64,000 nucleotides of DNA. It comes from Escherichia coli. Lineage in GTDB: Bacteria; Pseudomonadota; Gammaproteobacteria; Enterobacterales; Enterobacteriaceae. Shown here piece after piece: positions 6,023 to 9,000 of the stretch (its first letter is position 1; the number at the start of each line of letters is the position of its first letter). The position numbers are program-made. The stretch lies in assembly GCF_046105845.1 (NCBI RefSeq), contig NZ_CP151004.1. One strand, 5' to 3'.

Positions 6023-9000
6023 TAATGGCGTTAACAATGCGAGCGTGCCTGATGCGCTACGCTTATCAGGCCTACGAGACTCCTGCAATATATTGAATTT
6101 GCATGATTTTGTAGGCCGGATCAGACGTTAACGCCGCATCCGGCAAGAAGCTATAAGAAAAGGGCGGAGATCATCTTCGCCCTTTTTATTTCTGCAATCC
6201 GCAATTATCATCCCGCAGATCTATACTTTTTGGGTCAACACGTAACGCTTTACAGGTGATTATCATGGGGCTTTTTGATGAAGTTGTCGGTGCCTTTCTG
6301 AAAGGCGATGCGGGGAAATATCAGGCCATTTTGAGCTGGGTTGAGGAGCAGGGCGGCATTCAGGTGCTGCTGGAAAAACTGCAAAGTGGCGGTTTAGGTG
6401 CCATTCTCTCAACCTGGTTGAGTAATCAACAGGGTAACCAACCAGTTAGCGGCGAGCAACTGGAATCAGCGCTCGGCACAAATGCGGTGTCCGATCTCGG
6501 GCAAAAACTGGGCGTGGATACCAGTACAGCTTCCAGTTTACTGGCAGAACAATTGCCGAAGATTATTGATGCACTCTCACCGCAAGGTGAAGTGTCACCA
6601 CAAGCCAATAACGATCTGCTTTCCGCAGGCATGGAACTGCTGAAAGGGAAACTCTTCCGCTAAGCAAAAGGGGAGCACGCAACGCGCGTTGCATCCCCCT
6701 TTTCCCTCGGGTGTTGTACTGATTTTTGAGCGGAATCGCGTTAGCATGGGTCAGGAACCAATCTACCTGGGGAACTCATGGCTATCAAACTCATTGCTAT
6801 CGATATGGATGGCACCCTTCTGCTGCCCGATCACACCATTTCACCCGCCGTTAAAAATGCGATTGCCGCAGCTCGCGCCCGTGGCGTGAATGTTGTGCTG
6901 ACGACGGGTCGCCCTTATGCAGGCGTTCACAACTACCTGAAAGAGCTGCATATGGAACAGCCGGGCGACTACTGCATTACTTACAACGGTGCGCTGGTGC
7001 AGAAGGCCGCTGATGGTAGCACCGTGGCGCAAACCGCTCTCAGCTATGACGACTACCGTTTCCTGGAAAAACTCTCCCGCGAAGTCGGTTCTCATTTCCA
7101 CGCGCTGGACCGCACCACGCTGTACACCGCCAATCGTGATATCAGCTACTACACGGTGCATGAATCTTTCGTTGCCACCATTCCGCTGGTGTTCTGCGAA
7201 GCGGAGAAAATGGACCCCAATACCCAGTTCCTGAAAGTGATGATGATTGATGAACCTGCCATCCTCGACCAGGCCATCGCGCGTATTCCGCAGGAAGTGA
7301 AAGAAAAATACACCGTGCTGAAAAGTGCGCCGTACTTCCTCGAAATCCTCGATAAACGCGTTAACAAAGGTACGGGTGTGAAATCACTGGCCGACGTGTT
7401 AGGTATTCAACCGGAAGAAATCATGGCGATTGGCGATCAGGAAAACGACATCGCAATGATTGAATATGCAGGCGTCGGTGTGGCGATGGATAACGCTATT
7501 CCTTCGGTTAAAGAAGTGGCGAACTTTGTCACCAAATCCAACCTTGAAGATGGCGTGGCATTTGCTATTGAGAAGTATGTGCTGAATTAATCAGTGAACG
7601 GGCAAACGGCATGAATGCGTTTGCCCGCAGCGATTAACAATTTCTGGTCGTGCATAAAATCAGGAACTGGAGTGGTGACGTTACTATATCCAGCGTAAGA
7701 GTGACTGGCAGCAGCGCATTAACGAGGCCGCGCGGGACGCCATCTGTTGCTTTATACTCATAAAATCCCACCGTAAAGGGTTGATGGAAAACCATCACGT
7801 TTGAGTAATCCGCTTTTTTATTTTTCTGGTGGATTGAGCCTTTCAAACCGTCCAGCATCCATGTACAACGCCGGGTATCACAAATAAAACCATATTGTGT
7901 TGCCAGTGCCTTATCTTCTTCGTTGTTCCAGTCGTAATAGAGCGTAATAGCACCAGAGAAATTCTTATTACTGCTGCTTAAAATAAATTTCGCGTTATCA
8001 GAAACGGTGATTCTTTCACCATGAATTGCCGGATCGTTCAGCATTTTAACCACCTCATCGCCGCCGGTGGTCAACAGATAGTCCAACGATTCCCCAACAA
8101 AAACATAGCCTTTCGTACCGTTACTATCTTCTGCCAGCGATAAACCCTTAATCGTGTCTGACCGCCATTGCTCGGCATGTGGAGGGCTTGCGGTATTAAA
8201 AACCAGTCCTGCGGTGATACATCCGGTCAACGCAAATGCCAAAGAACACAAACTGGCAGCCTTAAAAAATCCCTTAAAATTCAACTTCATGATTAATCCT
8301 TTAAACGAGTAGCTAAGCCGTTGAAAGCATACTCTTCTTTCCCTCCTGTTTAGCGTCTGACATCCCTTTTCAGATTTCTGCCCGACGCATGTCATTTTTT
8401 TATGCATTGTTCTTTTTGTGATCTAAATTGTAGTACAACAATATAAATTTGTACTACATTACACGCACAGCAAACGCGAACGTCATCACGCTGGTACTAC
8501 AAAGTTGCCGCGTTATGCATCGATCGGGGTAAAGTAGAGAAGAACATACAGAGCACAAGGACTCTCCATGACTCTCAATAAAACCGATCGCATTGTCATT
8601 ACGCTGGGTAAACAGATCGTTCACGGCAAATACGTACCAGGCTCTCCACTTCCGGCTGAGGCGGAGCTCTGTGAAGAGTTTGCAACCTCGCGCAACATCA
8701 TCCGTGAGGTGTTCCGTTCGCTGATGGCGAAGCGGCTGATTGAAATGAAACGTTATCGCGGCGCGTTTGTGGCACCGCGTAACCAGTGGAATTACCTCGA
8801 CACTGACGTACTGCAATGGGTGCTGGAAAACGACTACGACCCACGGCTTATCAGTGCCATGAGCGAAGTGCGAAACCTGGTGGAACCGGCGATTGCCCGT
8901 TGGGCGGCAGAACGCGCGACTTCCAGCGATCTGGCGCAGATTGAATCGGCGCTGAACGAGATGATTGCCAACAATCAGGACCGCGAAGCGTTTAACGAAG

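What the first reader, a model, noticed from the sequence alone, without database searches (positions are those of the whole stretch)
6040..6150. REP/BIME elements after gyrB and after yicN
Typical enterobacterial REP palindromes occur at 6040-6150 and again at 45768-45840. The second borders the toxin-antitoxin insertion, so REP-associated recombination may have contributed to that insertion.
Basis: partly seen in the sequence, partly recalled or inferred. Interest (0 to 1): 0.2.

Follow-up and report, generated by a model that had tools for sequence, protein, structure and literature searches.

The report
Known REP/BIME repeats; toxin-antitoxin is ancestral
Both sites are ordinary, long-known E. 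coli REP/BIME repeats in the untranslated tails of genes, and the neighbouring toxin-antitoxin pair is most likely an old resident of this locus that strains such as K-12 lost by deletion, not an insertion.

Summary
Window 6047-6145 is a textbook BIME-1. It has a z1 REP that matches the published z1 sequence 30/30, the conserved 35-nt L linker (Rfam ES036, 56.9 bits against a cut-off of 37.6), and a y REP (32/35). It lies between the gyrB stop codon and an intrinsic terminator. K-12 and E. albertii carry the same element at the same place.

Window 45771-45837 is a decayed BIME-2 unit: a z2 REP lacking 20 nt of its 5' arm, a short linker, and a y REP (31/35). A further REP remnant lies at 45850-45870.

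The break between the TA-bearing allele (1716 of 5426 genomes) and the K-12-type allele falls exactly at the tail of the y REP (45837|45838). But the TA pair also sits between yicN and nepI in other Escherichia species, Citrobacter amalonaticus and Klebsiella indica, and in the last two there is no REP. The 41-nt K-12 "filler" still encodes toxin residues ETEQGK (7 of 20,000 shuffles reach this). So the K-12 allele is a deletion scar. A role for the REP in that deletion is possible but unproven.

In passing: IS621 occupies the z1 REP in 90 genomes, and 700 genomes lack the gyrB BIME.

The parts
6047..6076 (-). z1 REP of the gyrB BIME-1. Its GTAG head lies on the minus strand at 6075-6072. It contains the natural IS621 target ATCAGGCCTAC at 6065-6075.
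   Evidence: 30/30 match to the published z1 sequence, with no match in any shuffle. RNA hairpin -14.8 kcal/mol, z -3.4. IS621 target match. The site is occupied by IS621 in strain B7A and, by a gyrB-z1-IS621 junction query, in 90 genomes.
6077..6110 (.). L linker of the BIME-1, head-to-head between z1 and y. It carries an IHF-like motif, CAATATATTGAAT, at 6086-6098.
   Evidence: Rfam RF02751 ES036 matches 6068-6110 on the minus strand at 56.9 bits, above the 37.6 cut-off. The IHF consensus matches with one mismatch, but that motif is common in the window: 75 hits against 53 expected. The L linker is described as conserved and often IHF-binding in PMC3333891.
6111..6145 (+). y REP of the gyrB BIME-1, with its GTAG at 6111-6114.
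   Evidence: 32/35 match to the published y sequence, with no match in any shuffle. Hairpin -13.1 kcal/mol. The whole 6040-6150 stretch folds at -44.5 kcal/mol, z -4.7.
6157..6194 (+). Intrinsic terminator hairpin plus T-run, downstream of the BIME and upstream of yidB (ATG at 6265).
   Evidence: Fold -20.4 kcal/mol, z -4.95, followed by TTTTTATTT. It is conserved in K-12, in E. albertii and in the BIME-less allele. The simple consensus scan did not list it.
45771..45787 (-). 3' half of a z2 REP, 8 nt after the yicN stop codon (45760-45762). Its 5' arm was lost in a 20-nt deletion.
   Evidence: Other Escherichia species have the full z2 (TGCCTGATGCGACGCTGGCGCGTCTTATCATGCCTAC) at this position. 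The window and K-12 lack TGCCTGATGCGACGCTGGCG.
45788..45802 (.). Short head-to-head linker between the z2 remnant and the y REP.
   Evidence: Read directly from the sequence and from the alignment.
45803..45837 (+). y REP with its GTAG retained (45803-45806). Its last base is the breakpoint between the TA-bearing and K-12-type alleles.
   Evidence: 31/35 match to the published y sequence. Breakpoint. In K-12-type alleles the GTAG is mutated to GTCG or GGTG.
45838..45871 (.). Tail-to-tail linker plus a decayed inverted REP remnant (GTAGGTGAACGCATTATCTAC). Present only in the TA-bearing allele.
   Evidence: 45854-45870 is an inverted copy of 45808-45824, 17 nt at 88% complementarity (repeat I2). 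The Rfam naRNA4 model (y-linker-z2) aligns end to end over 45806-45871 but only at 32.9 bits, below the 59.5 cut-off. This is weak evidence, because the same model also accepted the gyrB terminator as its second stem.
45878..46201 (-). HTH (XRE/MqsA-like) antitoxin gene, convergent with yicN.
   Evidence: Pfam HTH_3, E = 6e-8. RefSeq annotation of an identical locus.
46185..46544 (-). RelE-family (PF06296) toxin gene.
   Evidence: Pfam PF06296, E = 1.4e-40. RefSeq annotation.
30490..30525 (-). Third, degenerate REP-like hairpin (head GTAA rather than GTAG), between emrD and tisB.
   Evidence: Found by the half-site scan. By my own count it has about 9 of 36 mismatches to z2, and it fell outside the threshold of the consensus search. 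The stem is kept: -19.2 kcal/mol, z -4.6.

Best explanation
Both sites are members of the E. coli REP/BIME family of dispersed extragenic palindromes.

Site 1 (6047-6145) is a single-copy BIME-1: a z1 REP, the conserved L linker, and a y REP, arranged head to head. It lies in the gyrB 3' untranslated region, between the stop codon and the intrinsic terminator. It is therefore transcribed with gyrB. Its hairpins most likely act as a 3' end structure that blocks exonucleases or modulates read-through into yidB. As DNA, the L linker is the kind that binds IHF, and the REPs are substrates for the REP-associated transposase TnpA_REP and for REP-targeting insertion sequences.

Site 2 (45771-45871) is a decayed BIME-2-type array: a truncated z2, a short linker, a y REP, a second linker and a REP remnant. 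It sits between the convergent yicN gene and a RelE/HTH toxin-antitoxin operon.

The TA pair is an old resident of the yicN-nepI spacer, and the BIME colonised that spacer within Escherichia. The K-12-type "empty" allele arose by deletion. The deletion removed the distal part of the BIME and nearly all of the TA operon, and left a 41-nt scar that contains a fragment of the toxin gene. Its left end coincides with the tail of the y REP.

Shown here: the identity and anatomy of the repeats, the allele frequencies, the TA pair in outgroups, and the toxin fragment. Inferred: the 3' UTR and IHF functions, and any causal role of the REP in the deletion.
For: REP identity:
- Exact or near matches to published y and z1 sequences, with no chance matches.
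- The L linker matches Rfam ES036 above its cut-off.
- The composition z1 + L + y in a single copy fits the BIME-1 definition in PMC3333891.
- The 501-nt stretch containing the element matches a median of 16 places per E. coli genome.

Position in the 3' UTR:
- gyrB stop at 6025, BIME at 6047-6145, terminator hairpin at 6157-6187 with -20.4 kcal/mol.

Conservation:
- K-12 is 96% identical across the spacer.
- E. albertii has the same BIME-1 with the same flanks, while Kluyvera and Pseudocitrobacter have only a terminator.

Functional context:
- REPs as 3' UTR terminator/stabiliser elements, about 40% between tandem and about 60% between convergent genes (bioRxiv 10.64898/2026.03.23.713779).

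TA ancestry:
- TA at the same locus in four other species, plus a decayed remnant in a fifth.
- The cassette is single-copy, chromosomal only, and diverged 97.5-99.5% like core genes, in 1716 of 5426 genomes.
- The K-12 filler encodes ETEQGK of the toxin with only synonymous differences. Two of the three variant codons are seen in E69 or E1V33 alleles. 7 of 20,000 shuffles reach a 6-residue match, and 9 of 500 shuffles reach the DNA alignment score.
- E. whittamii and MOD1-EC7003 share the same deletion junction.
Against: - No expression, IHF-binding or RNA-stability data were available for these two particular elements. The IHF motif match alone is not significant.
- The second y REP has a weakened stem, and its fold is not better than shuffles (z -1.1). 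It may be functionally dead.
- Horizontal exchange of the TA allele by flanking homology, instead of vertical descent, is not excluded. All four combinations of the z2 deletion and the TA indel occur among Escherichia, so recombination or recurrent deletion has happened.
- The deletion junction (GGTA|ATC) does not carry the C|T dinucleotide that TnpA_REP requires for cleavage (PMC3333891).
Confidence: 0.9

Rival explanations
1. The TA cassette was inserted into an originally empty yicN-nepI spacer by recombination at the REP, either between REP copies or after TnpA_REP cleavage.
For: The allele breakpoint lies exactly at the tail of the y REP. The TA-bearing allele begins with a linker and a REP remnant, which could be the cassette's own REP (repeat I2). 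REPs are documented recombination and IS-insertion sites (PMC3333891; PMC11208160).
Against: TA occupies the same site in Citrobacter amalonaticus and Klebsiella indica without any REP. The "empty" allele contains a toxin-gene fragment. The cassette is never found elsewhere in E. coli or on E. coli plasmids. There is no REP at the right junction. C. amalonaticus shows the same presence/absence polymorphism without a REP.
Confidence: 0.07
2. The deletion that made the K-12-type allele was caused by the REP: hairpin-stimulated replication slippage, gyrase or TnpA_REP cleavage at the foot of the y REP, or recombination between the y REP and the inverted remnant.
For: The left endpoint falls at the last base of the y REP. 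The spacer between yicN and the antitoxin stop codon is about 115 nt. The deleted segment starts with the tail-to-tail linker and a second, inverted REP copy (repeat I2). In vitro, TnpA_REP cleaves in linkers and up to several hundred nt from a REP that carries GTAG (PMC3333891).
Against: This is a single event, so coincidence cannot be excluded. There is no C|T at the junction and no evident microhomology. An equivalent TA loss in Citrobacter needed no REP. A second deletion, to the right of the toxin fragment, has no REP nearby.
Confidence: 0.25
3. The palindromes are simply gene-specific transcription terminators or chance inverted repeats, not members of a repeat family.
For: They lie at the 3' ends of genes and form hairpins.
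Against: Exact or near matches to family consensus sequences. The stretch is multi-copy in every genome. There is no T-run after the REPs, and a separate canonical terminator follows at 6157-6194.
Confidence: 0.01

Closest known systems
BIME-1 (also called RIP or RIB elements; Gilson/Bachellier classification, as summarised by Ton-Hoang et al. 2012, PMC3333891)
   Same: The composition is z1 + L linker + y, head to head and in single copy, at the 3' end of a transcription unit. The linker belongs to the conserved L type that often carries an IHF site. The orthologous copy is present in K-12.
   Different: Nothing substantive. The y REP has 3 substitutions against the published sequence, two of them in the stem (GGATCAGACG against GGATAAGGCG in K-12).
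BIME-2 (y + z2 units; for example REP325, the source of naRNA4, Rfam RF02564)
   Same: The yicN element has the z2 - short linker - y - linker - REP order. The z2 is complete in other Escherichia species.
   Different: It is a single decayed unit, not a tandem array. The z2 has lost 20 nt in E. coli. The y stem has GGGTGG for GGCCGG. The distal REP is only a remnant. The naRNA4 model scores 32.9 bits against a cut-off of 59.5.
REP-targeting insertion sequences (IS621, the IS110-family bridge-RNA recombinase; also IS1397)
   Same: The z1 REP at 6065-6075 carries the exact natural IS621 target, ATCAGGCCTAC. In strain B7A, IS621 is inserted there with the expected CT core at both junctions, and a junction query finds the same insertion in 90 genomes.
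   Different: In this window the site is empty.
Chromosomal type II toxin-antitoxin presence/absence polymorphisms
   Same: A RelE-family toxin with an HTH antitoxin, segregating in about one third of E. coli genomes at a fixed locus.
   Different: This is not a mobile cassette. It is syntenic across genera, and the "absent" allele retains a toxin fragment.

Membership tests
REP (E. coli y, z1 and z2 palindromic units) | Match to the y, z1 or z2 consensus sequence | tested here: met
   z1 30/30 at 6047-6076. y 32/35 at 6111-6145. y 31/35 at 45803-45837. The best chance hit had 10-12 mismatches.
REP (E. coli y, z1 and z2 palindromic units) | A conserved GTAG tetranucleotide 5' of an imperfect palindrome that can form a stem-loop | tested here: met
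   GTAG at 6075-6072 (minus strand), 6111-6114 and 45803-45806. Hairpins of -14.8, -13.1 and -13.1 kcal/mol. For the 45803 copy the fold is no better than shuffles (z -1.1). The 30490 copy has GTAA.
REP (E. coli y, z1 and z2 palindromic units) | Extragenic, at the 3' ends of genes, and present in many copies per genome | tested here: met
   All copies are intergenic and downstream of stop codons. The 501-nt stretch containing the element hits a median of 16 places per genome with megablast, capped at 40.
REP (E. coli y, z1 and z2 palindromic units) | Binding and cleavage by TnpA_REP (RAYT) | not testable with these tools
   This needs biochemistry. GTAG, which is essential in vitro (PMC8266576), is intact in the window copies but mutated in K-12-type yicN alleles.
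BIME-1 | z1 and y in inverse orientation, separated by the long conserved L linker, in single copy | tested here: met
   z1, a 34-nt linker, then y. The linker matches Rfam ES036 at 56.9 bits, above the 37.6 cut-off. Definition from PMC3333891.
BIME-1 | An IHF binding site in the L linker | tested here: inconclusive
   CAATATATTGAAT at 6086-6098 has one mismatch to YAANNNNTTGATW, a consensus quoted from my own knowledge. Such matches are frequent: 75 in the window against 53 expected. Binding was not tested.
BIME-2 | z2 and y separated by a short linker, usually in tandem copies | tested here: inconclusive
   The order z2 - short linker - y is shown by outgroups with a full z2. In the window the z2 is truncated, there is a single unit, and the naRNA4 model scores below its cut-off.
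Type II toxin-antitoxin (RelE PF06296 toxin with HTH antitoxin) | Adjacent, overlapping small genes, with a toxin-family domain and a DNA-binding antitoxin | tested here: met
   PF06296 at E = 1.4e-40 and HTH_3 at E = 6e-8. The two genes overlap by 17 nt. Activity was not tested.

The most novel reading that the evidence does not exclude
The yicN-nepI spacer carries a polymorphism shared across species. An ancient RelE/HTH toxin-antitoxin operon and its deletion scar, which retains the toxin fragment ETEQGK, both persist across Escherichia species. The deletion was triggered at the foot of a y REP by REP hairpin or TnpA_REP activity, which would make this a natural example of REP-mediated gene loss.
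Probability: 0.2. Interest if true: 0.3.

Novelty: already known. Interest (0 to 1): 0.12.

Why it matters
It matters little. REP and BIME elements have been catalogued in E. coli for four decades, and these two loci have the same elements in K-12.

Three modest points come out of the check:
- The K-12 reference is the derived, deleted state at yicN-nepI. Calling strain-specific toxin-antitoxin genes "insertions" relative to K-12 can therefore reverse the direction of the event.
- The gyrB BIME-1 is a compact natural display of REP dynamics: intact in 4624 genomes, replaced in 700, and occupied by IS621 in 90.
- Two Rfam "sRNA" families, ES036 and naRNA4, are in effect models of BIME parts. 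Hits to them should be read with that in mind.

Tried and rejected
- My first degenerate 36-nt REP pattern found nothing because its loop length was wrong. A fuzzy-regex scan timed out. I replaced these with a half-site scan and with published consensus sequences.
- The RefSeq record of K-12 carries no repeat annotation at gyrB-yidB, so no official REP or RIP number could be quoted.
- The consensus terminator scan missed the obvious terminator at 6157-6194. I relied on folding instead.
- The literature search for "ES036" returned only grant numbers.
- Strain HS-02 looked like a 78%-identical, divergent TA allele. On alignment it is a homopolymer-smeared assembly artefact, so I discarded it.
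- The full-length naRNA4 hit over 45806-45871 first looked like proof of a y-linker-z2 unit. I down-weighted it because the same model accepts the gyrB terminator as its second stem.
- I looked for the TnpA_REP C|T cleavage signature and for microhomology at the deletion junction. Neither was convincing.
- Which gyrB-yidB allele is ancestral, the BIME-less or the BIME-bearing one, could not be settled. E. albertii has the BIME, and more distant genera lack it but also lack the 36-nt alternative sequence.
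Full report
**Source and setting.** The window is E. coli chromosome, running dnaA … gyrB-yidB … adeQ-yicN-[toxin-antitoxin]-nepI-air. 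The 5900-6400 stretch matches gyrB/yidB in 5425 of 5426 complete genomes. The 45283-46700 stretch matches yicN plus a RelE/ParE-family toxin and an HTH protein.

**Site 1 (6040-6150): anatomy.** gyrB ends at 6025. The z1 REP sequence printed in Durrant et al. 2024 (PMC11208160, read) matches 6047-6076 at 30/30, with no match in any shuffle. The published y REP matches 6111-6145 on the minus strand with 3 of 35 mismatches. The two REPs are head to head: CTAC at 6072-6075 faces GTAG at 6111-6114.

The 34-nt spacer between them, together with the REP heads, matches Rfam RF02751 (ES036) end to end at 56.9 bits, above its 37.6 cut-off. Ton-Hoang et al. (PMC3333891) define BIME-1 as z1 plus y in single copy, separated by a long, well-conserved L linker that often carries an IHF site. 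This element fits that definition.

The IHF-like motif CAATATATTGAAT (6086-6098) has one mismatch to the consensus. The consensus is quoted from my own knowledge, and matches of that quality are common in the window (75 against 53 expected), so I count IHF binding as inferred.

The individual REPs fold at -14.8 and -13.1 kcal/mol. The whole 111-nt stretch folds at -44.5 kcal/mol (z -4.7). A separate canonical intrinsic terminator follows at 6157-6194 (-20.4 kcal/mol, z -4.95, then a T-run). yidB starts at 6265. The BIME is therefore inside the gyrB 3' UTR, upstream of the terminator.

**Site 1 across strains and species.** K-12 MG1655 has the same element, with the spacer 96% identical. E. albertii also has it, with the same flanks. 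Kluyvera and Pseudocitrobacter have only a short spacer with a terminator. The BIME-1 therefore predates the split of E. coli from E. albertii.

Within E. coli I found three states:

| State of the gyrB-yidB spacer | Genomes (of 5426) | Evidence |
|---|---|---|
| Intact arrangement (at least 80% of the 5900-6400 query covered) | 4624 | |
| Alternative allele: 132 nt including the BIME replaced by an unrelated 36 nt | 700 | |
| IS621 inserted in the z1 REP | 90 | |

In strain B7A the IS621 junctions read ATCAGGC-CT|TGTATT… and …ACAGTAT-CT|ACGAAA. That places the insertion at the natural IS621 target ATCAGGCCTAC with its CT core, as described in PMC11208160. The window carries this target, unoccupied, at 6065-6075.

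**Site 2 (45768-45840): anatomy.** yicN ends at 45762. The published y REP matches 45803-45837 on the minus strand with 4 of 35 mismatches, against a best chance hit of 12 mismatches. Its stem is weakened (GGGTGG where the consensus has GGCCGG), and its fold is no better than shuffles (z -1.1).

The sequence CGTCTTATCAGCCTAC at 45771-45787 is only the 3' half of a REP. In 'E. coli' E69, Escherichia sp. E1V33, E. whittamii and Escherichia sp. MOD1-EC7003, a complete z2 REP (TGCCTGATGCGACGCTGGCGCGTCTTATCATGCCTAC) occupies this position. E. coli proper has lost 20 nt of it. So the element is a decayed z2 - short linker - y unit of the BIME-2 type.

To the right of the y REP, 45854-45870 (GTGAACGCATTATCTAC) is an inverted copy of the y core at 45808-45824, 17 nt at 88% complementarity (repeat I2). 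My own estimate of the chance expectation is about 0.003 for a 300-nt region. The Rfam naRNA4 model (y-linker-z2 of REP325) aligns end to end over 45806-45871, but only at 32.9 bits against a cut-off of 59.5. I treat that hit as weak, because the same model also took the gyrB terminator as its second stem.

**The junction.** Of 5404 genomes with a match, 1715 cover the whole yicN-TA query. The rest, represented in the sampled rows, match only query positions 1-555, that is up to window 45837. Alignment with K-12-type strains puts the break exactly after the last base of the y REP (…GCATCCGGTA|). Homology resumes at CAACACCGTAAAAG (46679/46680). In between, K-12-type strains have a 41-nt filler, ATCTTTGCCCTGTTCCGTTTCGATCTTAACTCCAGCTCAAG, where the window has 842 nt.

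**Direction of the event.** Four results argue that the TA pair is ancestral and the K-12-type allele is a deletion.

1. The cassette is single-copy, never on E. coli plasmids, always at one place, and 97.5-99.5% identical among 1716 genomes, which is core-gene-like divergence.
2. A scan of one genome per species with YicN, followed by tblastn of the window's proteins against those loci, finds the toxin and antitoxin between yicN and nepI, in the same orientation, in four other species (table below). A 36-residue toxin remnant also survives in Citrobacter sp. MGH106. The Citrobacter and K. indica loci have no REP. C. amalonaticus itself has TA-bearing and TA-lacking alleles with REP-free junctions.
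3. Read on the toxin strand, the K-12 filler contains GAAACGGAACAGGGCAAAGAT = E-T-E-Q-G-K-D. The window's toxin codons 29-36 are GAAACAGAACAAGGTAAAGCTGAT = ETEQGKAD. The three nucleotide differences are all synonymous third positions, and two of them (ACG and CAG) occur in the E1V33 and E69 alleles. Only 7 of 20,000 shuffles of the filler share a 6-residue peptide with either TA protein. 9 of 500 shuffles reach the DNA alignment score.
4. E. whittamii and MOD1-EC7003 carry the same deletion junction (GGCA or GATA followed by ATCTTT…), with further decay.

| Species | Toxin identity | Antitoxin identity |
|---|---|---|
| 'E. coli' E69 | 92% | 93% |
| Escherichia sp. E1V33 | 96% | 95% |
| Citrobacter amalonaticus ku-bf3 | 72% | 79% |
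| Klebsiella indica | 72% | 84% |

For comparison, yicN is 81-99% and nepI 89-97% identical to the window's proteins in these same four species.

The simplest history is as follows. TA is old at this locus. A BIME colonised the convergent yicN/antitoxin 3' spacer within Escherichia. A deletion then removed the distal BIME part and most of the operon, leaving a scar with a toxin fragment.

All four combinations of z2 full or truncated with TA-bearing or TA-lacking exist among Escherichia. Recombination or recurrent small deletions have therefore shuffled these alleles.

**Did the REP cause the deletion?** This stays open. In favour: the endpoint falls on the last base of the y REP, and the deleted DNA begins with a tail-to-tail linker and a second, inverted REP copy. 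Against: it is one event; the junction lacks the C|T that TnpA_REP needs (PMC3333891) and shows no clear microhomology; and Citrobacter lost the same operon without any REP. I put REP causation at about 0.2-0.25.

**Function.** Function is inferred from family knowledge, not tested here. REPs lie about 40% between tandem and about 60% between convergent genes, and act as context-dependent 3' UTR terminators and stabilisers (bioRxiv 10.64898/2026.03.23.713779). Site 1 is the tandem case (gyrB then yidB). Site 2 is convergent in this window (yicN against the antitoxin gene) but tandem in K-12. GTAG, which is essential for TnpA_REP in vitro (PMC8266576), is intact in all three window REPs. In the yicN REP of K-12-type alleles it is mutated to GTCG or GGTG.

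**Also seen.** A third REP-like hairpin at 30490-30525 (minus strand) has head GTAA, about 9 of 36 mismatches to z2 by my own count, and a well-kept stem (-19.2 kcal/mol, z -4.6).

**Verdict.** The elements are already known kinds, and the orthologous copies exist in K-12. The "insertion by REP recombination" reading is mostly not supported, because the event is better read as a deletion in the K-12-type lineage. Interest is low.

Noticed in passing
window 6065-6075; locus L068 (strain B7A) 1915-2895: The z1 REP carries the exact natural target of IS621, the bridge-RNA recombinase. IS621 is inserted at this very site in strain B7A, with the CT core at both junctions. A gyrB-z1-IS621 junction query covers at least 80% in 90 of 5426 genomes.
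   Followed up: yes
window 6030-6161, compared with L066/L067 (strains DFK.1 and CS5L): 700 of 5426 E. coli genomes have a gyrB-yidB allele without the BIME. An unrelated 36 nt (TTTTTGTTGCTGATAAAATGACTTAGTCGTCAGTCC) replaces 132 nt. I could not determine which allele is ancestral. E. albertii has the BIME.
   Followed up: partly
window 6068-6110 (-) and 45806-45871 (+): The Rfam "sRNA" families ES036 (RF02751) and naRNA4 (RF02564) are in effect models of the BIME-1 L linker and of a y-linker-z2 BIME-2 unit. naRNA4 also aligns a REP plus any nearby hairpin, for example the gyrB terminator, at sub-threshold scores.
   Followed up: partly
window 30490-30525 (-): A degenerate REP-like hairpin with head GTAA, between emrD (29131-30321, minus strand) and the tisB/istR locus.
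   Followed up: partly
window 30598-30690 (-) and 30990-31119 (+): The tisB toxin ORF (identified by eye) and the istR antitoxin RNA (Rfam RF01400, 143 bits).
   Followed up: no
window 511-591 (-) and 16240-16312 (+): AsdA, the antisense RNA of dnaA mRNA (RF02674, 101.9 bits), and a ROSE_2 RNA thermometer (RF01832, 100.4 bits), presumably upstream of ibpA.
   Followed up: no
window 48157-60729 (+): A 4190-aa ORF with many tandem Ig-like repeats. RefSeq annotates it in a matching strain as the inverse autotransporter adhesin EaeX/Air. It is absent from K-12, where nepI is followed directly by yicS. This is a second indel next to the TA polymorphism.
   Followed up: no
L004 (strain HS-02, NZ_CP172818.1) 2950-3720: In this assembly the TA region is smeared into homopolymer runs and is only 78% identical, although its flanks are normal. 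This looks like a local assembly or polishing artefact, not a divergent allele.
   Followed up: yes
L063 (JAIJJM010000942.1, a MAG labelled Collinsella sp.): A 1075-nt contig in a Collinsella bin encodes the E. coli yicN end and the TA pair at 97-99% amino-acid identity. This is probably bin contamination.
   Followed up: no
L009 (Escherichia sp. MOD1-EC7003) 3530-3700; L013 (E. albertii); L015: MOD1-EC7003 has the TA-deletion junction fused directly into a truncated nepI. The E. albertii and SCPM-O-B-8794 loci have no nepI within 3 kb of yicN, so this spacer is rearranged repeatedly across Escherichia.
   Followed up: no
window 45752-45787: In species with the full z2 REP, the REP starts 8 nt after the yicN stop codon. 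Among Escherichia, all four combinations of the z2 20-nt deletion and the TA indel occur, which implies recombination within about 70 nt or recurrent deletion.
   Followed up: partly
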